A stretch of 64,000 nt of DNA from Gammaproteobacteria bacterium. GTDB taxonomy: Bacteria > Cyanobacteriota > Vampirovibrionia > Vampirovibrionales > JAJTHC01. The position numbers were made by a program, and so were the translations under genes. The notes under the pieces were generated by a model that saw nothing but the letters and a program-made list of their open reading frames with translations, was not told where the DNA came from and did not search any database. The stretch covers positions 3,546 to 67,545 of the forward strand of contig JBEISK010000005.1 of NCBI GenBank assembly GCA_040375445.1, in the 5' to 3' direction. Shown here one piece after another: positions 13,377-50,615 of the stretch. Within the stretch, counting starts at the first letter, position 1. Every line of letters begins with the position of its first letter.

Positions 13377-14545
13377 AATGGGGTTCCTTCTAAAACAAGT
13401 TCAATCACACGAGCCTGATCGCTTTTGCTCAAATGCGGAGACGAGGGTAAGTTGATGCCTCTTTCCCACAAGGCATAGGCGTTTTCAAACTGAGAGCGAG
13501 GCTCCTGCAACGACGCTTCCACCAAAAACGGATGCACATAGTCAAAGGCGGTAAATGGCATAAAGACAGGTCGCACCTGCACACCACGAGTCTGTAAAAA
13601 GCCTTGCAAGCCTTTGCGTCTGGCGTGATTTTCCACATAAAGCAGATTCAGCCAATAGCTTGGTGTGATGTGTTCAAAGGCGTTTTGATACGGCGGATTG
13701 TGATGATGCACAAAATCCAAAGACGCTTGCCCCTTAAACGTCTGAAGATACCCATCCGCAATGCGACTCTTGGCATCTAAAAACGCAGGCAGTCGCTTGA
13801 GTTGGCTGATGCCTAAGCTGGCGTGCAAGGCGTTCATTCGCAGGTTGAAGCCGAGGGCATCGTGGAAGAGTTCGCCACTGCCGTAGCACTTGGCTTGTGT
13901 GCTTTGGTGCTTAATTTTAGCGAGTAAGTCGTGGTCTTCCGAAACCAAGATGCCTCCGCTGGCGGTGGTGAGGGTTTTGTTGACGTTGAAACTATAAAAG
14001 CCGTAATGCCCGATCGTACCTACAGGTTTGCCTTCCACCAGCGTGCCGAGCGATTCGGCGGCATCTTCAATTAGAATCAACCCTTCGGCGTCGCACCAGT
14101 GACGTAATTTTAGTAGTTCAGGCATGGCAAGTCCGTAAAGATGCGTCACCAACACGACTTTCGTGTGGGGGGTTTTGGCGGATTGATACGCCTCAAGCGT
14201 GGGGGCAAAGGTGAGCGGATGCACATCCACCAAGCGGAGGCGGTGCTTTTGGTACAAAAACGGATGAATACTGGCCACAAAGCTGGTCGCTGGGCAAAGG
14301 ACTTCCGTGCCTTGGGGCAAATCGAGCAAGTGCAAACACATCCACAAGGCGGACGTGCCTGATTGTGTGGCGACGCATCCCAAATCGGGGCTGGCTCCCC
14401 ATGCGTGGAGCTGGGCAAGAAAGGCGTCTTCAAAGGTTTCCACCACAGGAGCGGCAGACGAAATCCAACCGTCTCGCAAGGTGGATGCCACCGCTTGCAC
14501 GTCGTCTTCATTCAAATCAGCTTCACACAGGGGAATGGATTTCAT
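13373..14545 (-). CDS. DegT/DnrJ/EryC1/StrS family PLP-dependent aminotransferase
   Basis: SGTSAL, IEDAAESLG, YSFNVNKTLTTASGG, GFNLRM, GINLPSSP. Confidence 0.9.
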   Translation of the reverse strand: MKSIPLCEADLNEDDVQAVASTLRDGWISSAAPVVETFEDAFLAQLHAWGASPDLGCVATQSGTSALWMCLHLLDLPQGTEVLCPATSFVASIHPFLYQKHRLRLVDVHPLTFAPTLEAYQSAKTPHTKVVLVTHLYGLAMPELLKLRHWCDAEGLILIEDAAESLGTLVEGKPVGTIGHYGFYSFNVNKTLTTASGGILVSEDHDLLAKIKHQSTQAKCYGSGELFHDALGFNLRMNALHASLGISQLKRLPAFLDAKSRIADGYLQTFKGQASLDFVHHHNPPYQNAFEHITPSYWLNLLYVENHARRKGLQGFLQTRGVQVRPVFMPFTAFDYVHPFLVEASLQEPRSQFENAYALWERGINLPSSPHLSKSDQARVIELVLEGTPL

Positions 14546-14687
14546 AATAAGGACTCTAGTACTAAAGGCTACAGTCCTTATTTTACATGATTTTCTAAGT
14601 TTGGCTTTCATCTTGAATAAAAAAGCCCAAACTCACCTTCAATGTTATAATAGAAACAAGAACGCTCTAAACATAGGAGAAATTGCC

Positions 14688-15305
14688 ATGCCCCTTCTTG
14701 AATCTACTGCAACCGCCACAACTCTTGCCACGCCCACCAGCCAAACCTTGATCTGGAAGTACATGGGAAGCGTCGGCTTGTGGAGCGTCTTGATTATCGG
14801 CGGATTGGTCGCTTTTTTGTGGCTTCTGAAAACCAAGCCCGAAGTCGTGCAGATCATCCGCAGTTGGGTGGGTATGGGGCATCCGCCGAGTCAAGAAGAC
14901 GAAAGCAAGCTTAAGGTCGAAGAAACCTTAGAGCTTGACGAAAACAAGCAATTGATGATTATTCAATGCGAACACGAGCGTTTTCTCGTGTCTTCAGGCG
15001 CCGATGGCTTGCGTTTTCTCACCAAGCTAGACAGTAGCCAAGCTTACGTGGAAGCCTTGCAAGACGCCTACGAATCTGAAAAAACCACGCATGAAGATGC
15101 CGCAGGCACACGAGGCATGGCGATTACCCCCAATGATACAGGCTATAGTCCTGCTAGTACACAAGCAGGGGTCACGGCTCCGACTAGCCCACGTTCAGGC
15201 ACCTTTTTACAAGGGGTGAGAAGTCTCTTCCCGTTGACACAGGGGACGCCACAGTCATGGGGGACTACTTCGTCGTCATCGCATCCACCATTCGGCTTAA
15301 AATAG
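14688..15305 (+). CDS. fliO: FliO-like export-gate assembly protein
   Basis: AGGAG RBS; one TM then LKVEETLELDENKQLMIIQCEHERFLV (FliO cytoplasmic domain); directly upstream of fliP. Confidence 0.75.
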   Translation: MPLLESTATATTLATPTSQTLIWKYMGSVGLWSVLIIGGLVAFLWLLKTKPEVVQIIRSWVGMGHPPSQEDESKLKVEETLELDENKQLMIIQCEHERFLVSSGADGLRFLTKLDSSQAYVEALQDAYESEKTTHEDAAGTRGMAITPNDTGYSPASTQAGVTAPTSPRSGTFLQGVRSLFPLTQGTPQSWGTTSSSSHPPFGLK

Positions 15306-15490: not shown

Positions 15491-15528
15491 GACAAGAACA
15501 CCCCTTCAAGAAAAAGGAAGACACCCCC

Positions 15529-16188
15529 ATGGCGACCGCCGCTTTTTCAGGAGCCTTTGCCAATTTAGACCCTGCCTTGCAGCTCATGTTGCTGATGGCA
15601 AGCTTGACCCTGCTTCCCTTTATGGTGTCAGGCATGACGAGTTTCTTAAGGTATGTCATTGTTTTTTCCATTCTCAAGCAAGCCATGGGAACCCAGCAGG
15701 TTCCGCCTTCTATGGTCTTAGTGGGGCTTGCCTTAATCCTCACCTTTTACACCATGAGTCCTGTTTTTGGAGAGATGTACACGGCGGTGAATCCCTTATT
15801 GAATAACCCCAAATCAAATGTCATGGATATTATGAACAAAGGCGTGGTGCCGTTGAAGCAATTTATGATGCGTCAAACGCGAGAGGAAGATGTGCGTATC
15901 TTCTTAGAAGTGTCTCGTAAACGAGCCCCCGAATCGGTGAACGACTTAAGTATTTGGGAAATTACGCCTGCCTTTATGTTGAGTGAATTGCGGACGTCCT
16001 TTGAAATTGGCTTTGTCATTTTCATTCCCTTTGTCATCATCGATTTGGTGGTTGCCAACATCTTGATGGCACTGGGGATGATGATGCTGTCGCCCACGAT
16101 TATTTCATTGCCGTTTAAGATCTTGATTTTCATTGCGGTCGACGGTTGGTCTTTAATTGTCAGAGGTCTCATTCAAAGCTTCAACTAG
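15529..16188 (+). CDS. fliP: Type III export gate protein FliP/SctR
   Basis: MTSFLRYVIVFSILKQAMGTQQVPP, PAFMLSELRTSFEIGF, LGMMMLSPTIISLPFK..VDGW. Confidence 0.93.
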   Translation: MATAAFSGAFANLDPALQLMLLMASLTLLPFMVSGMTSFLRYVIVFSILKQAMGTQQVPPSMVLVGLALILTFYTMSPVFGEMYTAVNPLLNNPKSNVMDIMNKGVVPLKQFMMRQTREEDVRIFLEVSRKRAPESVNDLSIWEITPAFMLSELRTSFEIGFVIFIPFVIIDLVVANILMALGMMMLSPTIISLPFKILIFIAVDGWSLIVRGLIQSFN

Positions 16189-16206
16189 GAACTGTCTGTA
16201 AGAAGT

Positions 16207-16355: not shown

Positions 16356-16393
16356 TAAAGCCCCCTAAATCCCCTAAAGAAAGTGTTGCCCCC

Positions 16394-16804
16394 ATGGATT
16401 ACCTACTCGAACATGTGAGACAAGGCATCTTATTGAGCCTCATGCTTTCAATGCCCCCTATTTTAGCGGCGGCGGTGATTGGTTTAATCGTGGGTATTTT
16501 ACAAGCCGTCACCCAAGTACAAGAACAAACACTTTCCGCTGTGCCTAAAATGATTGTGGTTTTTTTGATACTGATTTTAGCAGGGGGTACGATGCTTGAA
16601 ATGTCTGGGCAGTATATTCGCGAATCCATGCAACTGGCGTTTCAAGTGGTTCCAGCGACAGGGCATTTCTTGTTACCGCCTCAGCAAAAAAATGCAGGCT
16701 ATCAAAAAACGGCGGGTGAAAAAGGCACCGTTTATATGATTCAAGAAAAACGTCAAGCTCGTAATTCGGCTCAAGCCAGCCGTAAAACCATGGAAACGCC
16801 GTAA
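16394..16804 (+). CDS. fliQ: Type III export gate protein FliQ/SctS with C-terminal extension
   Basis: GLIVGILQAVTQVQEQTLSAVPK motif; 136 aa versus about 89 aa typical. Confidence 0.9.
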   Translation: MDYLLEHVRQGILLSLMLSMPPILAAAVIGLIVGILQAVTQVQEQTLSAVPKMIVVFLILILAGGTMLEMSGQYIRESMQLAFQVVPATGHFLLPPQQKNAGYQKTAGEKGTVYMIQEKRQARNSAQASRKTMETP

Positions 16805-17610
16805 TGGCAGGTTTTGAATCGTTATTACAAGGCTTTCACGTCTTACATGCCCAAGCCAATGGAGGCATTGATGCGGGGCTTTTGATGTTATGTCGCTTTG
16901 GTGGATTCATCAGCATTGCCCCCGTACTAAGCCGTAAGGATATGCCCCCCCAATTTAAAATTGGGTTGCTCTTAATGCTTACCTTTGCGATGATGTCTCA
17001 TCCTTCGGTGCAGGCATCCGCCAATATCTTGAAAAGCACCGTCATTACAGAGTTTATGATGCTTATGGTCATCAACATTGTGCTAGGCTTATTCCTTGGG
17101 TTTGCCGTACGACTTATTTTTGAAGCGGTGTCTATGGCAGGCGGATTCATTACCATGCAAATCGGGCTTCAAATGGCGAGTATGATGGATCCTTCTACCA
17201 AGCAAAGTTCAGCGATTATGGGGCCTATTTTCAGTGGTGTTGCGTCAATTATTTTTGTCTACGTCGGAGGCATTGAACTATTGCTTAAAACACTGGACAA
17301 AAGCCTAGGACTGGTGCCGTTGCACGTGTTGAATGTGGCGTTTTTTAAGGTGATTACGGTCTATCAGTGGATTGATACATCGGCGTCGATTATTCCGCTG
17401 GCCATGTTGATTTCCGCACCGTTTTATATTACGACGATTTTGATGGATTGTATTTTAGGCATCGTGAACAAAACCGCTCAACAGATCCCTGTGTTTCAGT
17501 TGAGTGCGAGCATCAAACCCCTATTGGGTTTGATTATCTTTTTCGTGACGGTACCGACCTTGTTTCCCCTCATCCGCCATATAATGATCACCATGTTGCT
17601 GCGGATTTAA
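16804..17610 (+). CDS. fliR: Type III export gate protein FliR/SctT
   Basis: RFGGFISIAPVLS, MAGGFITMQIGLQMASMMDP, KTAQQIPVFQLSASIK; 1-nt overlap with fliQ. Confidence 0.9.
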   Translation: MAGFESLLQGFHVLHAQANGGIDAGLLMLCRFGGFISIAPVLSRKDMPPQFKIGLLLMLTFAMMSHPSVQASANILKSTVITEFMMLMVINIVLGLFLGFAVRLIFEAVSMAGGFITMQIGLQMASMMDPSTKQSSAIMGPIFSGVASIIFVYVGGIELLLKTLDKSLGLVPLHVLNVAFFKVITVYQWIDTSASIIPLAMLISAPFYITTILMDCILGIVNKTAQQIPVFQLSASIKPLLGLIIFFVTVPTLFPLIRHIMITMLLRI

Positions 17611-22713: not shown

Positions 22714-23427
22714 TTAATTAGAGCCGTTATTTAGTTGAGCTATTACTTCTCTTAAACCGTTATTTCTGTTTAACCAACCATTTAGGAATACACCTTGCCC
22801 TCGTGCGCGTGCAAAACGACGATAGGTTTGTTCCCTAATACGCAGATATTGATGAGGATCTTCTTGACTTTGGGACAGTAAACGTTCTGCTCGTTTAGGG
22901 CCCATGTTAACGGCTGTGTCAAAATGTACCATGGCTAGTGGCTGATTCGTTTGAGCAATTTTATCGGCACCACTGGCCCTCCAATAATCATTATAATAAA
23001 TATCTCGTATTTCTTTTTCAGAAATGTTTCTAACATATTTTGAAGTTAATCCTCTTCTTCCGCGGTAACTGTCATATGTTGCTTGTGTAATCCCTTGCAT
23101 GGTAGCTCCACCTGCATCATTGGGATGATTTGAAAATCCTCCTTCGAATCTTAAAGTATGTTCTAAGGCTACCTGAAAGTTAGAATCTGTTTCAGGGCTT
23201 GTGCCAGCTGTTTTAGGAGAGTCGGGGCCAGTCGTGTTTCTTGTAGCGAAAAAGGGTCCCTTAGATCCAGCACGACCAGACCACGGAAGTCCACTAGATG
23301 GCTCAAAGGTATCAACACGAGCAAGAGTGGTCGCGGGGGGGGCAGTCGTGGCGGGGGCGGATGATCGGGGGCGCGGTCCAATTTGTTGACTAGCACGTTC
23401 AAATCTATCTAAAGCAAAAACCATCAT
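22714..23427 (-). CDS. Glycoside hydrolase family 108 (lysozyme-like) with disordered N-terminus
   Basis: FEGGFSNHPNDAGGATMQGIT, IYYNDYW, FDTAVNMGP, FLNGWLNR. Confidence 0.88.
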   Translation of the reverse strand: MMVFALDRFERASQQIGPRPRSSAPATTAPPATTLARVDTFEPSSGLPWSGRAGSKGPFFATRNTTGPDSPKTAGTSPETDSNFQVALEHTLRFEGGFSNHPNDAGGATMQGITQATYDSYRGRRGLTSKYVRNISEKEIRDIYYNDYWRASGADKIAQTNQPLAMVHFDTAVNMGPKRAERLLSQSQEDPHQYLRIREQTYRRFARARGQGVFLNGWLNRNNGLREVIAQLNNGSN

Positions 23428-41403: not shown

Positions 41404-42150
41404 ATGATGTCTAAAAAAGGAATCGCCCACTATTACAACATCTTCAAATATGACGTCGCCTTGCCGTTTTTTTCAAAGCAGTTAGCCCCTGCTTTTTTGA
41501 ATCATGTACGGTGGTGGTGGCGACGTTCGACTTGGCAAGTTCACTCTGAAACGCAAGCCTTACTAGATGCTGGCACGCCTGTTATTTTCGCTATTTGGCA
41601 TGGGCAAATGTTTACGCTGGTGCATCCGCAATGGATGAAAGGTGTCAGTGAATCGGATCAAACGTTGCCTCCTTATGTCTTGATTTCTCAAAGTCGGGAC
41701 GGTGATTTTATCGCCAATGTTGCCAAGCATATCGGATTCCCTCACAACATTCGAGGCGCTCACGGTCGTGGCGGGAGCAAAGCCGTGATGGCGATACAAA
41801 ATTTGTTCACCGAAAAGAAGGGGCATCTTATTTGCTTAATGGATGGACCTCGTGGGCCGAAGCATGAAGCGAAAAAGGGCATTGTGAACTTGGCGTTTCA
41901 GCTTGGTGTGCCAATTATTCCTGTCGCTGGGGTTACACCGCACCACTGGTTTAAGTTCTATTCGGCGTGGGACGATTTTGAGATTCCCGATATCGCCTTT
42001 CCCATTCATGTAGACTTAGGCAAGCCGATTTGGATTGAAGCCTCCGCCGATGAGGATGAAGGCGTGTTGGCGAAGGTCAATGAGACGTTGGTGTCTCATT
42101 TAAAGACGACGTTGTTGCGTTGTGGGAAGAATCCTCAAAATAGGCTTTAA
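41404..42150 (+). CDS. DUF374 / lysophospholipid acyltransferase family protein
   Basis: VIFAIWHG, LISQSRDGD, IRGAHGRGG, DGPRGP, GVPIIPV, WDDFEIP. Confidence 0.85.
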   Translation: MMSKKGIAHYYNIFKYDVALPFFSKQLAPAFLNHVRWWWRRSTWQVHSETQALLDAGTPVIFAIWHGQMFTLVHPQWMKGVSESDQTLPPYVLISQSRDGDFIANVAKHIGFPHNIRGAHGRGGSKAVMAIQNLFTEKKGHLICLMDGPRGPKHEAKKGIVNLAFQLGVPIIPVAGVTPHHWFKFYSAWDDFEIPDIAFPIHVDLGKPIWIEASADEDEGVLAKVNETLVSHLKTTLLRCGKNPQNRL

Positions 42151-42163
42151 AACACTATGTGAT

Positions 42164-44266
42164 CTACTCTTCCATGTTAATGGACGCCACTGCCTGCACC
42201 TTCACATCAGGGATGAGTTCGCTGTACGCCAAAACCACCGAATTGGGCAGGTGTCGGTCTAACAGCTCAAACAACGGCAAGCGAATACGAGGCGAGCATA
42301 AGATCACAGGCGGTCTTCCATAATGCTGTTGCACCATGCGAGACGTGTCACTAATGGCTTGAATCAACTGTTGCACCTGCATCGGATTCAACAAGAACAT
42401 GACGCCCAATTCCGTGCGTTGGCAGGCTTCATCCAACACGGTTTCCCATTCGTTAGACAAGGTCGCCGCCAGTAACTGCTTGGTTTTATCCGCATGAGAA
42501 ATACAGATTTGACGACCTAGTGAAGCCCTTAATCGTTCTGAAAGCGTGTCAGATTCTCGGCTAAATCGAGCGTAATCACTCAAGCGTTCAAAAATGAATT
42601 GAATGTCTTTAATCGACACTTTTTCTCGAATGAGGTTGACGAAAATCTTACGTAAGTCATTGGGCGTCAACATATTCGGCACGAGTTCTTGAATGACACT
42701 TGGATCACTACCCCGCATCAGCTCCATGAGCTTAAGTACATCAATTTTCGTCATCACATCATCGACGTATTTAATCACCACCATTTGCAAGTGAGTAATC
42801 ACGGCATCGGTCGATTCAACCGCCACGGTCTGCAATTGTTCAGGAATATCCGCTTGAGCCACCCATAAGGCAGGCACGTTCAAGGCGGAATCCGTGCCTT
42901 GAATGACTTGAGCAGGCTGCGCGACGCCATAGGTGTCAAAATAACTTTGCAAAATCATGTAATAACCAGGGTAAACCTTGCCTGTGGCGACAGGGTTGCC
43001 TCGAATGGAAATGAGGTATTCGTAAGGTTCAATTTCGGTGGAATCCATAATGCGGATGTTGGGTAGAATGAAGCCGAGTTCATCGGTTAAGCGAGTCCGC
43101 AGACCTGCAATTTTACCGAGCAACTGCCCGTCTTGCTCAGGGTCTGCAATTTGAAGGAGGCTTGCCCCCACTTGAAGACTAAGTACATCGACGCCCATTC
43201 GTTCGTACATACGGTTGGGATCAATCATTTGTTGCATGTTTTCTTGCACTTCTTGCAATTCACCCATTTGAGCCTGAACATCGCTGGTGATGAAGACGCT
43301 AAACGCCATGCCCCCTAGAATCATAGCAAACAGGACAAAAGGCCACCAGCTTAAACCTGTAATGGAAGAGGTCACCGCAATAAAGAGCAAGAACATCGCC
43401 GCAAAAATAAGACCATACGGCTTGCCACGAAACTGGGTGAAGAAATCTTTCGCCAAACTGTCGGAAACACTGGTGGTACGCGTCAGTGTAATCCCAATCG
43501 CCACGGACATAATCAAGGCAGGAATCTGTGAAGCCAAGCCGTCACCGATTGTTAGAATCGTGTATTTATTGACGGCTTCCATAATCGGTAAGCCTTTCAT
43601 CAAAACCCCAATGGCAATACCCCCCACGATGTTAATAATTGTGATGATAATCGCCGCAATCGAATCTCCTTTGACGAACTTCATGGCACCATCCATCGAA
43701 CCCAACAGGGACATTTCCCGTTGCAAGTTTTCACGCAATTGCCGTGCTTGATCAGGTCCAATAAAGCCTGCGTTTAAGTCGCCATCGATCTGCATTTGTC
43801 GACCGCCCAAAGAGTCGAGAGCGAATCTCGCCCCAACTTCCGCCACACGTTCCGACCCCTTGGTAATAACCATAAAGTTCACGGTTAAAATGATTAAGAA
43901 CAAAATCGCCCCAACCACCATGTTACCGCCTGTAACGAATTCTCCGAAGGCTTGCACCATCTGCCCCGCATGACCATGTGCCAAAACGGCACGAGTAACC
44001 GCAATCCCCAACGCCAATCGAAACAGGGTAGACACCAAAATCAAAGACGGAATCGCCGCCAAATCCAGAGGTTGCTTAACGTACAAGGACATCATGAGCA
44101 AGACCACGGAAAGGCTGATGTTAAAGGCAATGGAAGCATCCATAAACCAATCAGGCAAAGGCACCAAAATGATCAAAATTAGAATAAGCACGCCAACAAC
44201 CAGCAATATCTCACTAATAGGAGGAATTGCAAAGGCGTTGTTTGGAGGAGCGTCGGACATCATCAT
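42164..44266 (-). CDS. flhA: FHIPEP-family type III export protein FlhA/SctV
   Basis: TLFRLAL, VITKGSERVAEVGARF, DGAMKFVKGD, LTIGDGLASQIP; cytoplasmic domain with LIREKVSIKD and VLAYSEL. Confidence 0.92.
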   Translation of the reverse strand: MMMSDAPPNNAFAIPPISEILLVVGVLILILIILVPLPDWFMDASIAFNISLSVVLLMMSLYVKQPLDLAAIPSLILVSTLFRLALGIAVTRAVLAHGHAGQMVQAFGEFVTGGNMVVGAILFLIILTVNFMVITKGSERVAEVGARFALDSLGGRQMQIDGDLNAGFIGPDQARQLRENLQREMSLLGSMDGAMKFVKGDSIAAIIITIINIVGGIAIGVLMKGLPIMEAVNKYTILTIGDGLASQIPALIMSVAIGITLTRTTSVSDSLAKDFFTQFRGKPYGLIFAAMFLLFIAVTSSITGLSWWPFVLFAMILGGMAFSVFITSDVQAQMGELQEVQENMQQMIDPNRMYERMGVDVLSLQVGASLLQIADPEQDGQLLGKIAGLRTRLTDELGFILPNIRIMDSTEIEPYEYLISIRGNPVATGKVYPGYYMILQSYFDTYGVAQPAQVIQGTDSALNVPALWVAQADIPEQLQTVAVESTDAVITHLQMVVIKYVDDVMTKIDVLKLMELMRGSDPSVIQELVPNMLTPNDLRKIFVNLIREKVSIKDIQFIFERLSDYARFSRESDTLSERLRASLGRQICISHADKTKQLLAATLSNEWETVLDEACQRTELGVMFLLNPMQVQQLIQAISDTSRMVQQHYGRPPVILCSPRIRLPLFELLDRHLPNSVVLAYSELIPDVKVQAVASINMEE

Positions 44267-44346
44267 TTATTTGGATTCTTTACGAGTTTGGCATTTATTC
44301 ATTATAGAGGATGAACATTACATTAGTATAAAGTATGTAGAAAGGT

Positions 44347-45264
44347 TTAATGTTCGTCGAAGGCAGGAGCATCCCACGTTTGGAGGGTAGCATCGCCTTC
44401 AAGCAAGTGATCAAACTCAGCTTCGGCGGAAGATTGCGAGGCGATCGCCACATTCGGCAAGCCTAAAATCTTGCGAATCATGTGAAGTTGCGTGGTAAAC
44501 GTCGCATCAATTTGCCCACCAGACGTTTCTACAATGCAACTACCTAAGTCCACTTCGGCGTCGCCCACCACAATAATATGGCGCTGCACTTCGCCTTGCC
44601 ACGTTTCTTCATGTTCTTTAATATGTTGACGCAAAAATTTCACATCGCTGGGGTGTACTTTAAACACCACTTCTTTCTGGGTGCGATCCACCTTGCCTAA
44701 AACATCAAGAGCGATACCCACGACCAAGGCACGATCGCACGACAATTCCACCTTAATCAAGCGCTGGGCGATCGCCATTGCCATGGGGGCAATGTCTTGC
44801 ACAGATTTTTCAAGCACTTGGCTTTTAATCGTATCCAACTGGTCTAAAATCTGCCAAATCGCTTTGGACGATTCTTCGGCTTCTTTCATGCCTTCGACGT
44901 AACCATTTTGCTTGGCTTCTTCAAAGCCTGCTTGATACCCTTGTGGATGTCCATCCTGATAACCTTTGTTATAACCCGTATCATAAGCGTCTTGATAGAT
45001 GGCTTGCGGGTCTAAAGGGGCTTCATGGTCACTACGGCGACGCTTATAGGTGCTGGGGTCTTGGGGAACTTGTGTTTCTTCCCAAACCAGTTGATTCAAG
45101 AAATCATCGTCTGACGATGTGGGGGCTGTTGGTGAAGACACACCTGCTTGCTGATGAGCCACTTGGGCTAGCCACGGAGGCAACGGCTCCCCTGTGGGAA
45201 GCGTCCCATGACTGGTGGGGTTTTGTGTGGCTTGTTGTGAACGAATCCGTTTAATCAGAGGCAT
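44347..45264 (-). CDS. fliH: FliH/SctL ATPase-regulator
   Basis: GxxxG run (GYNKGYQDGHPQGYQAGFEEA), KVHPSD, GSCIVETSGGQIDA. Confidence 0.9.
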   Translation of the reverse strand: MPLIKRIRSQQATQNPTSHGTLPTGEPLPPWLAQVAHQQAGVSSPTAPTSSDDDFLNQLVWEETQVPQDPSTYKRRRSDHEAPLDPQAIYQDAYDTGYNKGYQDGHPQGYQAGFEEAKQNGYVEGMKEAEESSKAIWQILDQLDTIKSQVLEKSVQDIAPMAMAIAQRLIKVELSCDRALVVGIALDVLGKVDRTQKEVVFKVHPSDVKFLRQHIKEHEETWQGEVQRHIIVVGDAEVDLGSCIVETSGGQIDATFTTQLHMIRKILGLPNVAIASQSSAEAEFDHLLEGDATLQTWDAPAFDEH

Positions 45265-45307
45265 AAGGGGTTTCTCTTTATAGTGGGAGCTTCAGTCGTG
45301 TTGAGAT

Positions 45308-46510
45308 TTAGGCAAGAATGGTATTGTAGTAATTGAATAGGGCTTGTTCGAGTTTCGGCGTCCACTGCGGGATTTGATTATACCCGTTGGAGTGCTTATG
45401 TACAAGTCCTGCTGCCTTAAATAGACGTTGTATTTCAATACGTTCACCTTGCATCAAGTTTTCTAGCACCGTTCGGTTGTCAGGGCGTGCTAAAATATCA
45501 CATAGGGCGTGACGTAGGCGTTTTTCTTGGGCATGGGGATCTTCAGCCACCGCCTTAACGTTGTGTCTAAAGTCATTAAGCTTTTCAAGCACTTCATTCA
45601 TGGGCAGTTCTTGGGCAATATTTTCTACATTCATATAATGAATAATCTGATTACCCACCCCAGAAGGGAACTGATTCAACCATTCATTTTGAAGTGGAGG
45701 GGCTTGCGTCGTTAAAAACAAAGCGAGTGCCGCCAATTTAAGTTGCACATGCTTGGTATTCTGATGAGGTATCGCCACAGGTTCTGGCGGAGGGGCAGGG
45801 GCATACATCGCTTCATAAGACTGAAGGGCTTGAGGCGACGGCATGGTCTGAATAGGCACTTGGCGATTCATGGGTGAAGCTGGAACGTCTTTTTCATCAA
45901 AAAGAGGAGCCTCTTCAAGAGGCAGTTCAGCTTGAGGGGTTTTATTAAATCGATTCGTGGGAGCATCAGGGGGCATGTCTTCTTGCCCAATCGGGCCATG
46001 AATATTTTCATATTCGCCCAAATAATGGTGCAAGGCACTGGCGACCATTTGCTCCATCCAGCTTTCAAGTTGGGCGTCATCAAACTGCAATTCGGGCGTC
46101 GCTTCTTGCCCTACGGTGGCGGAAACAAACTGCTTGGCTTGAAAGAAGGCATCTTTCGCCAAACCTTGCAAAATGACTGATTTAGGCTCGCCTTTTAGAT
46201 TGTGTTCTTGAGCCTTTTCACTGGCATGAATAATTGCATGGGTAAATAGCGACAAAACCTTATAGCAGTGCCCCACATTAAAGGCCAAATAAGGAGCCTT
46301 AGGATCCTGCGGTTGAAACCCTGGTTCTTGCTGAAGTAAGCCCACCGCCACTTGAATAAAGTGAGCCGTAATATCCGCCGAACGTTTAATTTCACTGATA
46401 TTTAAGCCTGAACTACTGAGGGCTTCCGTGACTTTCTCGGCAAACTCCACCGAAAGGGCTTCGGCGTTCATGGAAATAATCAAAGGATCCACAGGGGGAC
46501 GTTTTGCCAT
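45308..46510 (-). CDS. Hypothetical protein in the fliG position, with a FliG-like segment
   Basis: Between fliF and fliH; LKLAALALFLTTQAPPLQNEWLNQFP..QIIHYM resembles one FliG helical repeat. Confidence 0.55.
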   Translation of the reverse strand: MAKRPPVDPLIISMNAEALSVEFAEKVTEALSSSGLNISEIKRSADITAHFIQVAVGLLQQEPGFQPQDPKAPYLAFNVGHCYKVLSLFTHAIIHASEKAQEHNLKGEPKSVILQGLAKDAFFQAKQFVSATVGQEATPELQFDDAQLESWMEQMVASALHHYLGEYENIHGPIGQEDMPPDAPTNRFNKTPQAELPLEEAPLFDEKDVPASPMNRQVPIQTMPSPQALQSYEAMYAPAPPPEPVAIPHQNTKHVQLKLAALALFLTTQAPPLQNEWLNQFPSGVGNQIIHYMNVENIAQELPMNEVLEKLNDFRHNVKAVAEDPHAQEKRLRHALCDILARPDNRTVLENLMQGERIEIQRLFKAAGLVHKHSNGYNQIPQWTPKLEQALFNYYNTILA

Positions 46511-46531
46511 GCGTGAGTCTCCTTGTTTTCC

Positions 46532-48286
46532 TTATTCTGCGGAACTTAACCATTGAGCAATATTCATATCCTGCGGACGAATCGCTGGGGCATCGTTGGA
46601 CGCATTCTTCATGTTTTCATTCAATTCCTTCAGGGCATCTTTCAGTTTTTCAACGCTCTGTTGGCGGGTGCGTTCAAGCACTTGATGCTGTTCTTGTTGG
46701 GCTTGCATCAACTGTTCATTCAGCTGTTGCTGATACTGCAAGTGCGTTTGCGTTTCTTCCGCATGTTGACGCAATTGCTGTAATTCGTTAATCGCCGAAT
46801 CCAAGGTTTCTGCGGTATGCTGTGTCTTTCCACTATTACCCATAAACATCATAATGGCAACCGCTCCTATTACCGTAATCGCCATCCAAGGGAGCCACGT
46901 CATCACGCCAGCCGCCGTTTCAGGGCTTAAACCTGGCAATAAAAAGCCAGCGGTATTCATCGGCGGTTCAGGTAAAGGATCTTCTCCTGCCAAAGGCTTG
47001 GGGTTTTCAAAATCGGTGCGAGCCAAGCTCACATTCAACGGATTGACTCGTGGGCTTGCGGAACGAGCAATCAAGACTTGTAAATCTTCAGGCGGAATGT
47101 TAGGGTAGTAATCGTCATCAATCGTCACCGCAATCGAAACATCTTCCACCATACCCGGTACGCTGGTTTCCACCCATTGCGTATGCCCGTTTTGATAGCT
47201 CACTTCCGTGCCTTCACGCAAGTAGCCGTCGTTACTGCTACTTTTGGATATATTTTCCATAGACTGCATGGATTGACCGATCGCCACTTTACTGTCGAGT
47301 TCAGGGGGTAAGAATCCCGAAACAGGTCCACTGGCTTTACCGTTGGAACTGGAACTTCCTCCACTACCACCGAGTGTTTCTTGAAAACGTTGCTTACTTG
47401 CCACTACTGATTTGGATGGATCAAAGTTCTGCACCATGGTTTCTTTGGGCGATTCACGCAAGAAGGTCGAAACTGTCACCACATAACGCCCTTCGCCAAT
47501 GAGCTTGTCGAGTTGAGCCGCCACTTTTTGCTTCATGTAAAAATCTTGATCCGCAGCCTTGTCTTGCAATTCTAAGGCGGAATCTAGCACACTATTATAG
47601 GTATTGCCGTTGGTGTCCGACAGTGCCACATGCTTGGCTTCCAACCCTTGAATACCCCCCACCATTAAATTGATGACGGCTCTGACTTTGTCTCGTGTGA
47701 GCCGTTCACCAGGAGGCAACGTCACTTGCACCGCCGCCGACGGAGGCTTACGATCGCTGGCAAAAAGCGTGGGGTCTGCTATTGAAATTTTCACATGGGC
47801 GTCTTCCACAGGGGGCATTTTGCGGATGATTCTGGCCAAATCGCCTTCTTGCCCACGAATGAGTTTGATCTGCTTTTCTTCACGGCTTGCCATCATATCG
47901 CTGGTGTCAAAGGCTTCCATGCCGAGCTTGCCGTCCATTAAGCCTGATTGAGCGAGAGTCAGCAGAGCTTGATCCCGATCGTTTAAGGTGGCATCTTCCG
48001 CAAACATCAACGACACTTTGCCCCCTGTGCCAGCGAGGGTATCGAGGCGGATGTCTTGCCGAGAGAGTAAGGCTCTGATTTCGACGGCTTTACCTGCGGC
48101 GATGTCGGTGGCTAAAGGGAGCTGTTCTTCGCTCAGGACTTTCGCCCCTTCATCGACCTTGACTGCTTTGCCTCCACTGCCTGCGACGGCTGTGATGATA
48201 ATAATCACCACAAGCAGAACCACCCCTCCGATGATCGAAAAGAAGAGTCTTCTATTTTCCATTAAGGCTTGCAATTGTGGAGGCAC
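46532..48286 (-). CDS. fliF: MS-ring protein FliF/SctJ-like
   Basis: Two TMs; GMEAFDTSD..SREE..RGQEGDLARII..VEDAHVKI..LF..PPSAAV..HVALSDTNG (YscJ/FliF ring motif). Confidence 0.85.
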   Translation of the reverse strand: MPPQLQALMENRRLFFSIIGGVVLLVVIIIITAVAGSGGKAVKVDEGAKVLSEEQLPLATDIAAGKAVEIRALLSRQDIRLDTLAGTGGKVSLMFAEDATLNDRDQALLTLAQSGLMDGKLGMEAFDTSDMMASREEKQIKLIRGQEGDLARIIRKMPPVEDAHVKISIADPTLFASDRKPPSAAVQVTLPPGERLTRDKVRAVINLMVGGIQGLEAKHVALSDTNGNTYNSVLDSALELQDKAADQDFYMKQKVAAQLDKLIGEGRYVVTVSTFLRESPKETMVQNFDPSKSVVASKQRFQETLGGSGGSSSSNGKASGPVSGFLPPELDSKVAIGQSMQSMENISKSSSNDGYLREGTEVSYQNGHTQWVETSVPGMVEDVSIAVTIDDDYYPNIPPEDLQVLIARSASPRVNPLNVSLARTDFENPKPLAGEDPLPEPPMNTAGFLLPGLSPETAAGVMTWLPWMAITVIGAVAIMMFMGNSGKTQHTAETLDSAINELQQLRQHAEETQTHLQYQQQLNEQLMQAQQEQHQVLERTRQQSVEKLKDALKELNENMKNASNDAPAIRPQDMNIAQWLSSAE

Positions 48287-48388
48287 GCTAAAAATCCCTA
48301 ATTTAAGCTAGTATTAGTCTAGTCTTATTTTAGCAAGTTCTAAAGCGACTTTTCAGGATTCTTGAACGGCTTCCACTATTTAGGGTAT

Positions 48389-48748
48389 TTAAGGCAAGAA
48401 ATAGCAGACGGCTTGGGTATCGGTTTCGTAAATACAGACCTTGCTCACCTCAGAGATGCTTTCTCGCAATTCATTAAAAATCAAGCGAGCCATAAATTCG
48501 GCACTGGGACTTTCACCTGCAAAATCGGGCAAGGTGTTGAGATCCTGATGATCAAAACGGTCGATAATAGGATCCAAGACCGCTTTCATGTCCTTAAAAT
48601 CTAGGGCGATATTCGCTTTGTCGAGCGTGTTCATTTGCACATAGACCCGTACTTTATAGTTGTGTCCGTGAGGGGTGGCACATTTGCCGACATAATTGAG
48701 CAAGTGGTGAGCCGAAGAAAAATGGCGTTCTAGCATCATTTCAAACAT
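48389..48748 (-). CDS. queD: 6-carboxytetrahydropterin synthase
   Basis: FSSAHHL..GKCATPHGHNY, DFKDMK, FDHQDLN, PSAEFMA, IYET. Confidence 0.93.
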   Translation of the reverse strand: MFEMMLERHFSSAHHLLNYVGKCATPHGHNYKVRVYVQMNTLDKANIALDFKDMKAVLDPIIDRFDHQDLNTLPDFAGESPSAEFMARLIFNELRESISEVSKVCIYETDTQAVCYFLP

Positions 48749-48873
48749 AAAAAATCGTTCCTTTTTAAAAAACAGAAGGGTGAGGGAACCTTCATTCAAA
48801 GGGTATCATAAACATAGGGGACAAAACAAGTCAAAGACTTGTGAGAAGACCTTTCGATTCGTTATTCTGAAAG

Positions 48874-50190
48874 GTGAAGCACAGACTCAATCAAGGTAAA
48901 TGCGACGTGGTAGTTTCGATCAAAAAAAGCCTCATTCTACTAAGCACGCTCGTCGTGCTAGCCGTTGCCGTACTATTTTATCAACTTTCCTATATCATCG
49001 TACATGACGACTTAAGCCGTCATCTTGGCGTGTGGATGAAAGCTCCCCAAGCATTTTTGGGGAATCCGCCAGCGTGGTTGAATCAAAGCTGGAAGAGCTA
49101 CAAAGCTCGCTTTATTCAAGCCGATGGGCGAGTCAAAGACTTTTATAATAATAGTGCCACCACAAGCGAAGGGCAAAGCTACGCCCTTCAACAAGCCGTT
49201 TGGCTCAACGACAAAGCCTCGTTCGACACCCTCTGGCATTGGACGAGAGACAACCTGCAAGTGCAAAAAGAGCATAAGCTCTTTTCATGGAAGTGGGGAG
49301 AAGATCCCAAAACGAAAAAATGGGGCGTGCTAGACGCCAGCGTCGCTGCGGATGCCGATCAAGACATCGCCTTTGCCCTACTTATGGCTCACGAGCGGTG
49401 GCACGATCCGAACTACAAAAAAGAGGCCCTTCGTATTTTAAACGACTTATGGAAGCACGAAGTTACTGAATCGGCATGGGGGCCAGTGCTTTTACCGGGG
49501 AATTGGCATCGCTTTGAAGCCAAGATCCCTGATGTGGTTTTGGTGAATCCGTCGTATTTGTCTCCAGCCTTGTACCGAGTCTTTGCTCAAGTGGACAAAA
49601 CGCATCCTTGGGAAAAGCTGGTGAGCAGTAGCTATCAAATTTGGGAGGCATCCTTTAAGCTAAACAAACGAGGCTTACCCCCTGATTGGGTGTGGCTAGA
49701 TCGTTCCAAAGGCAAAATCTACGCCAAGCACGACGATCCAGCGTTTAAGGGTATGACGAGTCAATTTGGCTATGAAGCCTGTCGACTGCCGTGGCGTTTG
49801 TTTCAAGATGTGGCGATTAGTCGGGCGTACAAGTGGAAGAATCCCACGGGCGAAGCCTTGTTGAAGGGACTCAACGAAAGCTTAGATCAAGGTTTCCCAG
49901 AAGTCACGCGCTTAGACGGCGTCAAAGTGCAGGCGTTTGGTTCAAAGGCTCGAGAAGCAGGCTTTTGGCCCTTGTTGATTTTAAATGATTCCCCCTTGTA
50001 CGAAACCTATGCTTCGCATTATAATTGGCAAGACGCCCTTAAAAGCGACGATTACTATGCACGCAATTGGTTATGGTTTGCGGTGTGGTTACAGGTGTTT
50101 CAACAAACACAGTTACAGCATTTAGAAAGTACGCACAACACCCCGCCTCAATTGTTGCCCTTGTTGACTCATTCTTTAGATGTTGATTGA
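48874..50190 (+). CDS. Glycoside hydrolase family 8 (endoglucanase/chitosanase-like), membrane-anchored
   Basis: TSEGQSYAL, FDTLWHWT, AADADQDIAFALLMA, VNPSY, GLPPDW, GYEACRLPW. Confidence 0.9.
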   Translation: MKHRLNQGKCDVVVSIKKSLILLSTLVVLAVAVLFYQLSYIIVHDDLSRHLGVWMKAPQAFLGNPPAWLNQSWKSYKARFIQADGRVKDFYNNSATTSEGQSYALQQAVWLNDKASFDTLWHWTRDNLQVQKEHKLFSWKWGEDPKTKKWGVLDASVAADADQDIAFALLMAHERWHDPNYKKEALRILNDLWKHEVTESAWGPVLLPGNWHRFEAKIPDVVLVNPSYLSPALYRVFAQVDKTHPWEKLVSSSYQIWEASFKLNKRGLPPDWVWLDRSKGKIYAKHDDPAFKGMTSQFGYEACRLPWRLFQDVAISRAYKWKNPTGEALLKGLNESLDQGFPEVTRLDGVKVQAFGSKAREAGFWPLLILNDSPLYETYASHYNWQDALKSDDYYARNWLWFAVWLQVFQQTQLQHLESTHNTPPQLLPLLTHSLDVD

Positions 50191-50213: not shown

Positions 50214-50615
50214 ATGAAATTGCCCCATACCGCAGAAGAATTATTGTTTCAGGTGCATCACGGCGTGATGCTCTCTCGGGTGGACAATTTCATTCTGCCC
50301 TTTCAAGTGGGGATTCTGCCGAAGGAAATCGGCATGACGCAACGCTTACGCTTCAATGTGCGGGTGGCGTCTAAAGAAATGGGGCGGGTGGGCGAAAATT
50401 TGCAACTCAGTTTTGACTATCGCTTGATTGTGGAAACGCTGGAAATACTTTCCAAAGCCAAGCACGTGCCGTTATTGGAAGAAATCGCCGAAGAGCTGGC
50501 AGGGGTCGTCTTGTCGCATCCTTTGGGCTTGGGCTTGTGGGTGCGGATTGAAAAGCTGGACTTGCTCCCTAATGCCGAAAGCATCGGTATTGAGCGCGTG
50601 TTTCTCAAACATTAG
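50214..50615 (+). CDS. folB: Dihydroneopterin aldolase-like protein
   Basis: VGILPKE..TQRLRFNV, FDYRLIVE, HVPLLEEIAEELA, VRIEK..AESIGIE. Confidence 0.75.
   Translation: MKLPHTAEELLFQVHHGVMLSRVDNFILPFQVGILPKEIGMTQRLRFNVRVASKEMGRVGENLQLSFDYRLIVETLEILSKAKHVPLLEEIAEELAGVVLSHPLGLGLWVRIEKLDLLPNAESIGIERVFLKH

What the first reader, a model, noticed from the sequence alone, without database searches (positions are those of the whole stretch)
42164..48286. Candidate flagellum-derived, injectisome-like type III secretion core (fliF - FliG remnant - fliH - flhA/sctV)
Seen: four co-oriented genes in the order FliF, unknown, FliH, FlhA, with no fliI, flhB, fliM/N or mot genes nearby. The FHIPEP protein reads EMSLLGSMDGAMKFVKGD. 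Known (recalled, not searched): flagellar FlhA usually has EADFYG(S/A)MDGASKFV, whereas injectisome SctV has ESQL(Y/F)GxxDGAMKF; canonical order is fliF-fliG-fliH-fliI. FliF length and the FliH GxxxG run are flagellar-like. Inference: a hybrid, possibly non-rotary export machine intermediate between flagellum and injectisome in a probable Melainabacterium, perhaps for host or prey interaction. Caveat: flgK/flgN are in this window, so a real flagellum may exist.
Basis: partly seen in the sequence, partly recalled or inferred. Interest (0 to 1): 0.85.

Follow-up and report, generated by a model that had tools for sequence, protein, structure and literature searches.

The report
Second, filament-less flagellar-type secretion machine
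These four genes belong to a second, divergent copy of the flagellar protein-export machine that non-photosynthetic relatives of cyanobacteria keep even where they have lost the flagellum itself, so it probably does something other than swimming.

Summary
On the minus strand, window 42164-48286 encodes FliF, a 400-aa unknown protein (X), FliH and FlhA. This is not the genome's only set. The 1.9-Mb Vampirovibrionales genome has two FlhA, two FliF, two FliPQR, two FlhB and two FliI, but one FliG, one FliM and one MotA. The window carries the divergent set ("system 2"), including FliO/P/Q/R at 14307-17610.

In a relative, system 2 is one cluster: rods, lytic transglycosylase, FliE, FliF, X, FliH, FlhA, FliI, FliJ, a FliK-like protein and a hook/rod protein.

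I sampled 151 genomes of the class. The 54 genomes of three families gave no match to flagellin, FliG_C, MotA_N or FlgH. All 54 keep the system-2 FlhA and one FliN-like gene, and 53 keep one FliP of the system-2 type.

System-2 FlhA forms a clade outside canonical flagellar FlhA and outside SctV. An AU test does not quite reject common origin with the canonical copy (p = 0.055).

X has a FliG_N-like domain and no detectable torque domain.

Best reading: a non-rotary, flagellum-derived basal body that exports proteins. It is flagellar-type, not injectisome-like. Partial flagellar gene sets in gut relatives are already published. The separate paralogous system is not, in the papers I searched.

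The parts
46532..48286 (-). FliF2: MS-ring protein of system 2 (584 aa), with a long cytoplasmic C-terminal tail ending in a conserved Trp
   Evidence: PF01514 106.4 bits and PF08345 39.6 bits. TIGR00206 fliF 111.5 bits against SctJ TIGR02544 40.1 bits, both under their cut-offs. A second, canonical FliF lies on contig C56. Orthologues stand next to FlhA2 in G007, G020, G041 and G151. Alignment A3.
45308..46510 (-). X: system-2 protein in the fliG position (400 aa). It has an N-terminal helical domain (1-175), a disordered Pro-rich linker (183-237) and a C-terminal helical domain (250-400). The first ~75 residues of the C-terminal domain fold like FliG_N. No FliG_C was detected.
   Evidence: No Pfam family in any of 65 family members. 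AF2 mean pLDDT 85.7 for the whole protein and 93.9 for the C-domain. VIA-align top hits are FliG 8umd_B (Z 6.5, rmsd 4.3, 67 aligned) and 5wuj_B (Z 6.3). Orthologues give weak FliG_M and MgtE_N hits. The profile was found in 72 of 151 class genomes, beside FlhA2 wherever both coordinates were listed.
44347..45264 (-). FliH2: the FliH/SctL-type partner of the export ATPase
   Evidence: PF02108 68.8 bits. Best NCBIfam FliH model 95.5 bits against SctL TIGR02499 38.3 bits. It is the only Pfam-detectable FliH in the genome. The GxxxG/A run is at about residues 97-125.
42164..44266 (-). FlhA2: export-gate FHIPEP protein of system 2 (700 aa)
   Evidence: PF00771 671.3 bits. TIGR01398 FlhA 633.2 against TIGR01399 SctV 546.3 bits. 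34% identical to the canonical FlhA1 on contig C20. It sits in a clade of its own outside canonical FlhA and SctV.
14307..15305 (+). FliO-like protein upstream of FliP2. The true start is probably further downstream, because this ORF overlaps the neighbouring aminotransferase gene.
   Evidence: PF04347 FliO 28.3 bits at residues 189-256.
15529..16188 (+). FliP2: export-gate subunit of system 2
   Evidence: PF00813 237.1 bits. 42% identical to FliP1 on contig C28. The single FliP of flagellin-less families is 45-60% identical to FliP2.
16394..16804 (+). FliQ2
   Evidence: PF01313 84.9 bits. 29% identical to FliQ1.
16804..17610 (+). FliR2
   Evidence: PF01311 164.4 bits. 25% identical to FliR1.

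Best explanation
The four genes encode four parts of a second flagellar-type type III secretion system ('system 2'): the MS ring (FliF2), a FliG_N-like adaptor without torque domains (X), the ATPase partner (FliH2) and the export gate (FlhA2).

System 2 is ancestral to the class Vampirovibrionia. Its other parts are FliO/P/Q/R2 in this window and, elsewhere in the genome, FliI2, FliJ2, a FliK-like protein, FliE2, FlgB/C/F/G-like rod proteins, a rod/hook D1 protein, a lytic transglycosylase and one FliN/SctQ-like protein. Presumably one of the two FlhB copies also belongs to it.

Inferred mechanism: it assembles a non-rotating basal body with a periplasmic rod. It exports proteins through the FliPQR-FlhB-FlhA gate, driven by the FliH-FliI-FliJ ATPase complex and proton-motive force.

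It works beside the canonical motility flagellum ('system 1': FlhA1, FliF1, FliG, FliM, FliY, MotA, FlgH, flagellins) and persists where that flagellum has been lost.

Shown: the paralogy, the gene content and the distribution. Inferred: absence of rotation, the export function, the substrates and the destination.
For: **Two sets in one genome.** There are 2 FHIPEP (847.5 and 671.2 bits), 2 FliF, 2 FliP, 2 FlhB and 2 FliI genes. There is 1 FliG_C and 1 true MotA. The paralogues are 25-42% identical.

**Not a binning artefact.**
- 39 of 41 genomes of the order gave two or more FHIPEP matches, among them the closed genomes G007 and G020.
- The 2 genomes with one match (89% and 81% complete) had the divergent type.

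**Full cluster.** In G041 the genes stand in this order: rod, rod, FlgB-like, FlgC, SLT, FliE, FliF, X, FliH, FlhA2, FliI, FliJ, FliK-like, FlgE/F/G-D1. The orthologues are scattered in G000.

**Distribution over 151 class genomes at least 85% complete.** The table gives matches in the three flagellin-less families.

| Query | f7 | f8 | f9 |
|---|---|---|---|
| FlhA2-type | 35/35 | 8/8 | 11/11 |
| Flagellin | 0/35 | 0/8 | 0/11 |
| FliG_C | 0/35 | 0/8 | 0/11 |
| MotA_N | 0/35 | 0/8 | 0/11 |
| FlgH | 0/35 | 0/8 | 0/11 |
| FliMN_C (mostly one match) | 35/35 | 8/8 | 11/11 |
| Rod C-domain | 35/35 | 4/8 | 11/11 |
| FliP (single, 45-60% identical to FliP2) | 35/35 | 7/8 | 11/11 |

**Tree.**
- LG+G4 careful, 70 rows: canonical FlhA 48 rows (100/99), FlhA2 clade 15 rows (100/100) outside it, SctV 6 rows (100/100).
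- LG+C20 PMSF, 32 rows: the same topology.
- The branching orders inside the type-1 and type-2 clades are congruent.

**X.**
- FliG entries fill 8 of the top 18 VIA-align rows. Only 6 of 48161 chains reached Z 5 or more.
- Complex prediction of X residues 241-400 with the FliF2 tail gave weak support: score 0.39, best of 3 controls 0.06.
- That mark was reached by 58 of 80 solved complexes and 2 of 110 mismatched pairs. At 0.60 or under it was reached by only 7 of those 80 and by both mismatches.
- The runs agree in at least 82% of contacts, and the partner pLDDT is at least 66.
- FliF-FliG complexes are solved, so the pass may come from memory.

**Selection.** dN/dS against G007 is 0.03 for FlhA2, 0.07 for FliF2 and 0.13 for X. 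dS is 1.3-2.5, near saturation.
Against: - No expression or structural data. No RNA run holder was listed.
- 'No match' to Pfam flagellin, FliG_C, MotA_N or FlgH in a six-frame search does not exclude very divergent homologues.
- No outer-membrane component was identified for system 2. Export beyond the periplasm is therefore unsupported.
- FliH is the only Pfam-detectable FliH in the genome. The 257-aa ORF after FliG1 gave no hit. Sharing of FliH between the two systems is not excluded.
- The AU test does not reject FlhA1 and FlhA2 as one clade at 0.05 (lnL difference 44.7, p-AU 0.055). The deep placement could therefore be fast evolution after a lineage-specific duplication.
- Tree references are biased. 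The genome contigs rows were picked by the MDGA[MS]KF / KGD motif. The SctV rows come only from plasmids, with no Chlamydiota or Myxococcota SctV.
- The X profile was not found in f6 (0/23), f8 (0/8), f9 (0/11) or f11 (0/1).
- The FliG_N likeness rests on Z 5.8-6.5, which is a middling range for helical folds. Foldseek gave no match at E 0.001 or better.
Confidence: 0.6

Rival explanations
1. System 2 is a second motility flagellum, as in dual polar/lateral systems. It would borrow FliG, stators and flagellins from system 1, or use one of the six flagellin genes.
For: The parts are flagellar-type throughout: FliE, rods, FliK-like, FliJ and a long FliF. The genome has six flagellin-family matches. 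There is a MotA-like ORF beside FliL-FliM-FliY in addition to the MotA on contig C16.
Against: System 2 persists in 54 of 54 sampled genomes of f7, f8 and f9, which gave no flagellin, FliG_C, MotA_N or FlgH match. Flagellated genomes carry only one FliG_C and one FlgH. X has no detectable torque domain. In passages of Soo et al. 2015 (PMC4451040), V. chlorellavorus is described as having a single polar flagellum.
Confidence: 0.12
2. System 2 is a decaying relic of an old duplication, or of flagellar loss, with no present function. This is the 'incomplete flagellar gene set' reading in the literature.
For: Soo et al. 2014 (PMC4040986, passages) read the partial sets in Gastranaerophilales as loss of a functional flagellum. 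Di Rienzi et al. 2013 (PMC3787301, passages) read MEL.A1 as ongoing genome reduction. The genes are dispersed in G000.
Against: Full-length open frames occur in 115 of 151 sampled genomes, across nine family codes and in small genomes of 1.6-2.3 Mb. The branching is congruent with the canonical copy, which implies long vertical retention. dN is far below dS. The set retained together is coherent: gate, ATPase complex, MS ring, rods and a FliN-like protein.
Confidence: 0.13
3. System 2 is a specialised contact-dependent injection device for prey or host cells, a functional analogue of an injectisome built from flagellar parts.
For: The lineage includes an epibiotic predator (PMC4451040 passages). 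In the unrooted tree the FlhA2 clade lies on the branch between canonical FlhA and SctV. FlhA2 of f1, f2, f3, f4 and f7 shares the SctV-like ES...DGAMKF motif. A lytic transglycosylase sits in the cluster.
Against: No needle, translocon, secretin or effector/chaperone genes were found in the G041 cluster. I did not search for them genome-wide. No FlgH or other outer-membrane ring was assigned to the system. It is kept in gut lineages with no known predatory habit. Soo et al. 2015 attribute predation to a type IV secretion system.
Confidence: 0.15

Closest known systems
Bacterial flagellar type III export apparatus and basal body (FlhA/FlhB/FliPQR, FliF, FliG, FliHIJ, FliE, FlgBCFG)
   Same: Every recognisable part is of the flagellar kind. 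The local gene order is flagellar: rods, FliE, FliF, [fliG position], FliH..., FliI, FliJ, FliK-like, hook/rod. FlhA2 scores higher on the FlhA model than on the SctV model.
   Different: It is a separate paralogous set that coexists with a canonical flagellum. Its FlhA lies outside the canonical FlhA clade. FliG is replaced by a protein with only a FliG_N-like domain. No flagellin, MotA_N, FliG_C or FlgH travels with it. flhA sits between fliH and fliI.
Injectisome (non-flagellar T3SS; SctV/U/R/S/T/J/N/L/Q/C)
   Same: It shares the homologous export core, a single FliN/SctQ-like protein, no torque generator and no filament of flagellin. The ES...DGAMKF motif occurs in FlhA2 of five families.
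   Different: FlhA2 is outside the SctV clade (100/100). The MS ring is FliF-type, not SctJ. The system has FliE and FlgB/C/F/G-like rod proteins, which by recall injectisomes lack. Secretin, needle and translocon genes were not searched.
Filament-less flagellar basal bodies of the aphid symbiont Buchnera (recalled from the literature, not seen in any call)
   Same: A flagellar basal body and export apparatus kept without flagellin or stators, and proposed to act as a protein exporter.
   Different: There, the sole flagellum was reduced and FliG/FliM/FliN were kept (recalled). Here, a distinct paralogous system exists alongside an intact flagellum in many lineages, and it has its own FliG_N-only protein.
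Dual flagellar systems (polar plus lateral, for example E. coli Flag-2)
   Same: Two sets of export-gate genes in one genome.
   Different: The Flag-2 FlhA-like row nests inside the canonical proteobacterial FlhA clade in my tree. By recall such systems have their own flagellin, FliG and stators. System 2 has none detected.
'Partial flagellar gene sets' reported in non-motile Gastranaerophilales
   Same: This is the same genes seen from the other side. Passages of Soo 2014, Di Rienzi 2013 and bioRxiv 10.64898/2026.04.24.720558 report retained flhB, fliI and flgG. [quoted passage not shown]
   Different: In the passages I read, those papers treat the genes as leftovers of the one flagellum. Here the retained genes are shown to be the system-2 paralogues, which also exist beside a complete flagellum in flagellated relatives. 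I could not open the supplements: Table S3 of Soo 2015, Fig. S7 of Soo 2014, Supplementary file 1 of Di Rienzi 2013 and Extended Data Fig. 3 of the preprint. They may list the duplicates.

Membership tests
FHIPEP (FlhA/SctV superfamily, PF00771) | Full-length match to the FHIPEP profile above the gathering score | tested here: met
   671.3 bits against a cut-off of 29.1, over profile positions 2-656 of 657.
Canonical flagellar FlhA (equivalog TIGR01398) | Score above the curated equivalog cut-off | tested here: not met
   633.2 bits against a cut-off of 772.1.
Canonical flagellar FlhA (equivalog TIGR01398) | Placement inside the flagellar FlhA clade | tested here: not met
   The clade lies outside the 48-row canonical clade (100/99). 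It also lies outside the 18-row clade under LG+C20 (98). Caveats: AU p = 0.055 for union with FlhA1, and the reference sampling is biased.
Injectisome SctV (TIGR01399) | Score above the cut-off and placement in the SctV clade | tested here: not met
   546.3 bits against a cut-off of 692.25, lower than the FlhA model. The 6 SctV rows form their own clade (100/100) without it. Only plasmid-borne SctV were sampled.
Injectisome (NF-T3SS) as a system | Short SctJ lipoprotein ring, secretin SctC, needle SctF, and no flagellar rod or FliE | tested here: not met
   The ring protein is FliF-type: 584 aa, fliF 111.5 against SctJ 40.1 bits. FliE and FlgB/C/F/G-like rod genes belong to the cluster. Secretin and needle families were not searched.
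Motility flagellum as a system | Flagellin filament co-inherited with the basal body | tested here: not met
   Flagellin_N gave 0/35, 0/8 and 0/11 in f7, f8 and f9. All 54 of those genomes keep the FlhA2-type gene.
Motility flagellum as a system | Rotor protein FliG with the torque-generating C-terminal domain, and MotA stator | tested here: not met
   FliG_C gave 0/54 and MotA_N 0/54 in f7-f9. There is one FliG_C per flagellated genome, apart from the two f4 genomes (2 and 3 matches). X gave no FliG_C match.
Motility flagellum as a system | fT3SS export gate, MS ring, ATPase complex and axial rod proteins | tested here: met
FliG (PF14842, PF14841, PF01706) | Sequence match to the FliG_N, FliG_M or FliG_C profiles | tested here: not met
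   0 of 65 family members matched any Pfam family at E 0.01 or better. The best result is one orthologue with FliG_M at 23.6 bits, under the cut-off of 25.
FliG (PF14842, PF14841, PF01706) | FliG_N fold that binds the FliF C-terminal tail | tested here: inconclusive
   The top VIA-align hits are FliG_N chains at Z 6.5, 6.3 and 5.8. The complex with the FliF2 tail got weak support: 0.39 against a best control of 0.06.
FliH (PF02108) | Match above the gathering score | tested here: met
   68.8 bits against a cut-off of 24.1. All NCBIfam FliH equivalogs scored below their cut-offs.

The most novel reading that the evidence does not exclude
System 2 is a third major branch of type III secretion machines. 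It would be an ancient, non-rotating, flagellum-like nanomachine with its own rod. It sits between canonical flagella and injectisomes in the FlhA/SctV tree. It is inherited vertically through Vampirovibrionia and used to deliver proteins to prey algae (Vampirovibrionales) or into the gut environment (Gastranaerophilales). That would make it a living example of the kind of intermediate proposed for the flagellum-to-injectisome transition.
Probability: 0.25. Interest if true: 0.9.

Novelty: new variant of a known kind. Interest (0 to 1): 0.75.

Why it matters
How a rotary flagellum gave rise to a non-rotary secretion machine is a long-standing question. Natural intermediates are scarce.

Here a whole bacterial class appears to carry a flagellar-type export machine that has shed the filament, the stator, the L ring and the torque-generating part of FliG. 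It keeps the rod, the MS ring and the complete export core. It does so both beside a normal flagellum and without one.

This gives a directly testable system. One cultured relative exists (Vampirovibrio chlorellavorus) and many gut genomes are available.

It also changes how 'incomplete flagellar gene sets' in human-gut and animal-gut Gastranaerophilales should be read. They are not debris of a lost flagellum. They are a distinct, conserved machine.

Tried and rejected
- **First tree (116 rows).** It contained 9 rows translated from a wrong frame (longest-ORF artefact in GC-rich loci), which produced a 3.9-length branch. I corrected this and do not use that tree.
- **LG+C20 mixture model on 70 rows.** It did not finish in two 300-s calls. 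I replaced it with LG+G4 careful on 70 rows and LG+C20 quick on 32 rows.
- **Foldseek against PDB.** No match at E 0.001 or better for the whole X model or for its C-domain.
- **VIA-align on the whole model.** It was dominated by generic helical hits to the N-domain. The N-domain remains without an assignable fold.
- **hhalign of the X family against the single FliG1 sequence.** Probability 4.7%.
- **hmmsearch of the X profile against FliG1.** E = 0.002 in a six-sequence database, which is not meaningful on its own.
- **tblastn and phmmer of X and FliH2 against the genome.** No paralogue found.
- **Promoter and terminator scan of 41800-49000.** Counts at chance: 11 against 9.6 and 8 against 8.0.
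- **Expression.** No RNA holder listed. Read laying was not run. DNA words occur in freshwater and lake metagenome runs. I did not lay them, so I draw no habitat claim.
- **Bin chimera as the source of the duplicates.** Rejected. Both copies occur in closed single-contig genomes, and both sets of contigs carry housekeeping genes.
- **Left unresolved.** Which FlhB copy (contig C44, or contigs C51 plus C38) belongs to system 2. Whether FlgK and FlgN in the window belong to system 1 or 2.

Full report
**What is there.** Window 42164-48286 holds four tightly spaced minus-strand genes.
- FliF-like, 584 aa: PF01514 106.4 bits and PF08345 39.6 bits.
- A 400-aa protein with no Pfam or NCBIfam hit, called X here.
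- FliH, 305 aa: PF02108 68.8 bits.
- FlhA, 700 aa: FHIPEP 671.3 bits.

NCBIfam favours the flagellar models over the injectisome models. The scores are FlhA 633.2 against SctV 546.3 bits and fliF 111.5 against SctJ 40.1 bits. All four are under their curated cut-offs. The flanking genes are housekeeping genes. The same window also carries FliO-like/FliP/FliQ/FliR at 14307-17610 and FlgK/FlgN at 735-2867. Names attached to close FlhA homologues place the organism in Vampirovibrionales, among the Melainabacteria. The V. chlorellavorus protein is 63% identical.

**Two systems in one genome.** The 1.91-Mb assembly has 71 contigs, 94.6% completeness and 1.2% contamination. It holds these counts:
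- two FHIPEP genes (847.5 bits on C20, 671.2 bits in the window);
- two FliF and two FliP-Q-R clusters;
- two FlhB, one of them split over two contig ends;
- two FliI;
- one FliG carrying all three FliG domains, one FliM, one FliY-like protein and one extra 558-aa FliMN_C protein;
- one MotA with MotA_N, and six flagellin-family matches.

The window's copies are 34% (FlhA), 42% (FliP), 29% (FliQ) and 25% (FliR) identical to the others. Flagellar genes of both sets lie singly or in twos and threes among housekeeping genes. Missing neighbours therefore mean nothing here.

The duplication is not a binning artefact. 39 of 41 genomes of the order gave two or more FHIPEP matches, one near 850-897 bits and one near 665-720 bits. 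These include single-contig genomes. The 2 genomes with one match (89% and 81% complete) had the divergent type.

**What system 2 consists of.** Around the FlhA2 orthologue of G041 (family code f4) the genes form one cluster:
- two FlgE/F/G-D1 rod proteins, a 117-aa FlgB-like protein and FlgC;
- an SLT lytic transglycosylase;
- FliE, FliF, the X orthologue (317 aa, FliG_M 23.6 bits, under the cut-off) and FliH;
- FlhA2, FliI and FliJ;
- a 256-aa protein with a weak FliK hit;
- a 276-aa FlgE/F/G-D1 protein.

G151 (f7, closed genome) has FliE-FliF-X-FliH-FlhA. G020 and G007 have FliF-X-FliH-FlhA. The methods of Di Rienzi et al. 2013 list the same order for ACD20, plus a second flhA on another scaffold (passages). 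Searching with the G041 proteins finds the G000 orthologues scattered on contigs C35, C39, C40, C49, C53 and C54. It assigns the FliI on C49 to system 2 (666 against 428 bits).

**Distribution.** I searched the same sample of 151 class genomes, each at least 85% complete, with each query. The rows give matches per family code.

| Query | f1 | f2 | f3 | f4 | f6 | f11 | f7 | f8 | f9 | f5 | f10 |
|---|---|---|---|---|---|---|---|---|---|---|---|
| FlhA2 protein | 16/16 | 2/2 | 17/17 | 2/2 | 22/23 | 1/1 | 35/35 | 8/8 | 11/11 | 0/33 | 0/2 |
| Flagellin_N | 16/16 | 2/2 | 17/17 | 2/2 | 23/23 | 1/1 | 0/35 | 0/8 | 0/11 | 0/33 | 0/2 |
| FliG_C | 16/16 | 2/2 | 17/17 | 2/2 | 23/23 | 1/1 | 0/35 | 0/8 | 0/11 | 0/33 | 0/2 |
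| X profile | 16/16 | 2/2 | 17/17 | 1/2 | 0/23 | 0/1 | 35/35 | 0/8 | 0/11 | 0/33 | 0/2 |

- MotA_N matched 60 of 151 genomes and FlgH matched 60 of 151. Both gave 0/35, 0/8 and 0/11 in f7, f8 and f9.
- Those 54 genomes nevertheless keep a FliMN_C gene (54/54, mostly one match, against 3-5 in flagellated genomes).
- They keep rod C-terminal domains (35/35, 4/8, 11/11).
- They keep a single FliP that is 45-60% identical to FliP2, whereas FliP1 is 41% identical (35/35, 7/8, 11/11).
- The 'second FHIPEP' of f7 is only a ~490-aa protein with the FlhA cytoplasmic domain.

So flagellin, FliG, MotA and FlgH travel with FlhA1, not with FlhA2. Record titles label the f7-like sequences as Gastranaerophilales MAGs.

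**Phylogeny.** I built a 70-row FHIPEP tree (LG+G4, careful search, 704 columns).
- Canonical flagellar FlhA forms a 48-row clade (100/99).
- That clade contains the Vampirovibrionia FlhA1 clade (12 rows), which is sister to a Blackallbacteria row (99/97).
- It also contains the E. coli Flag-2 row.
- The 6 SctV rows form a clade (100/100).
- The FlhA2 clade (15 rows, 100/100) lies outside both. It joins a Marinamargulisbacteria row only weakly (95/43).
- The inner branching of type 1 and type 2 is congruent ({f6, f11, (f8, f9)} against {f1, f2, f3, f4, f7}). Both were therefore present early in the class.

A 32-row tree under LG+C20+F+G4 gave the same arrangement (98 and 100 SH-aLRT).

Caveats:
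- Holding FlhA1 and FlhA2 together costs 44.7 lnL units, with p-AU 0.055, which is not rejected at 0.05.
- The reference loci were selected by an FHIPEP motif.
- The SctV rows are plasmid-borne only.

FlhA2 of f6, f8, f9 and f11 reads ERES..[FY]G.MDGASKF. FlhA1 reads EADFYGTMDGASKF.

**The unknown protein X.**
- Its family has 78 clusters among 1.84 billion representatives. None of 65 aligned members matches any Pfam family.
- The family profile recovers the positional orthologues in G041 (E = 2e-28) and G151 (E = 3e-21).
- AlphaFold2 gives two confident helical domains joined by a disordered Pro-rich linker (mean pLDDT 85.7).
- I folded the C-domain alone (pLDDT 93.9) and compared it with 48161 chains. 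Only 6 reached Z 5 or more.
- The best hits are FliG chains: 8umd_B residues 1-67 (Z 6.5, rmsd 4.3, 67 aligned), 5wuj_B (Z 6.3) and 5tdy_D (Z 5.8). Eight FliG entries stand in the top 18.
- Z values of this size are common for helical folds, and Foldseek found nothing significant. I therefore read this as moderate evidence for a FliG_N-like module, which is the part of FliG that holds the FliF tail.
- Complex prediction of X residues 241-400 with FliF2 residues 528-584 gave weak support. The score was 0.39 and the best of 3 controls 0.06.
- That mark was reached by 58 of 80 solved complexes and 2 of 110 mismatches. At 0.60 or under it was reached by only 7 of the 80 and by both mismatches.
- The runs agree in at least 82% of contacts, and the partner pLDDT is at least 66. 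Solved FliF-FliG complexes may explain the pass.
- No FliG_M or FliG_C domain above threshold was found in X.

**Selection.** Against the same-genus genome G007, dN/dS is 0.03 for FlhA2, 0.07 for FliF2 and 0.13 for X. dS is 1.3-2.5, near saturation, so only 'dN far below dS' is safe.

**Interpretation.** The cluster is the core of a second flagellar-type T3SS that is older than the orders of the class. It is retained without the parts that make a flagellum swim. The most economical mechanism is a non-rotating basal body (MS ring, FliG_N-like adaptor, one FliN/SctQ-like protein and a rod) that exports proteins. Rotation, substrates and destination were not tested. No outer-membrane component was found.

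It is flagellar in kind, not injectisome-like. It resembles Buchnera's filament-less basal bodies in logic (recalled, not from a call). It differs in being a separate paralogous machine.

**Literature.**
- Soo et al. 2015 describe one polar flagellum and a T4SS-based predation model for V. chlorellavorus. A 'find' in the main text gave 0 occurrences of 'type III', 'T3SS', 'FlhA' or 'FliF'.
- Soo et al. 2014 and a 2026 preprint report partial flagellar gene sets in most Gastranaerophilales. The preprint mentions a postulated secretion role (passages).
- Utami et al. 2018 discuss completeness only.
- I ran four literature searches: 'Vampirovibrio' + 'flagellar' + 'type III secretion' (3 papers), 'Melainabacteria' + 'type III secretion' (5 papers), 'Melainabacteria' + 'flhA' (1 paper) and 'Gastranaerophilales' + 'flagell' (38 papers, 20 listed).
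- By title, abstract or the passages I read, none describes two paralogous systems.

Noticed in passing
G151:C1:1501950-1502969; G060:C3:11192-12226; G041:C7:59407-60495; G037:C27:4388-5527 (loci L078, L079): Stand-alone proteins of about 490-530 aa that match only the cytoplasmic C-terminal half of FHIPEP (profile positions ~276-656). They occur in the f7, f4 and f3 genomes listed under 'where' and look like a soluble FlhA_C paralogue.
   Followed up: no
e.g. G032:C3:271149-271604 beside 271661-272803; G030:C8:79064-79510; G034:C14:413980-414423: Several f3 genomes carry one or two extra ~175-aa ORFs beside X. These match only the N-terminal domain of X (profile positions 6-153), which looks like tandem duplication of that domain.
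   Followed up: no
window 735-3478 (minus strand): FlgK (515 aa), FlgN (189 aa) and a 193-aa ORF with no family. I did not assign them to system 1 or system 2. Only this one full-length FlgK turned up by phmmer. The two other hits (E 3.5e-4 and 4.5e-3) are rod/hook-family ORFs.
   Followed up: partly
whole genome G000: Flagellar genes of both systems are dispersed singly or in groups of two to four among housekeeping genes. For example, FlhA1 stands alone between SAM synthetase and an aminotransferase, and FliG1 stands alone. This is unusual for flagellar regulons.
   Followed up: partly
loci L081 and L090 (genome contigs): Records titled 'uncultured Acinetobacter sp.' and 'uncultured Gammaproteobacteria bacterium' carry FlhA2-type genes that nest inside Gastranaerophilales and f11. 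L090 is identical to the G069 copy. The record labels are probably wrong.
   Followed up: no
window 19707-22142 (+): An 811-aa ORF with no Pfam family lies 2 kb downstream of FliR2, after gcpE. No link to system 2 was tested.
   Followed up: no
G000:C61:71646-72461 (L036:13601-14419, minus): A 272-aa ORF directly upstream of FliL-FliM-FliY has a weak phmmer match to MotA (E = 1.6e-4) and no Pfam hit at 1e-5. It may be a divergent second stator-like protein.
   Followed up: no
window 48874-50190 (+), 50612-51526 (-), 22714-23427 (-), 61359-63323 (-): Several cell-wall or glycan hydrolases lie in the window: a GH8 BcsZ-like endoglucanase next to the cluster, an M23 peptidase, a GH108 lysozyme-like protein and an AMIN-amidase. 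They may be relevant to a predatory or envelope-remodelling lifestyle. I showed no link to the cluster.
   Followed up: no
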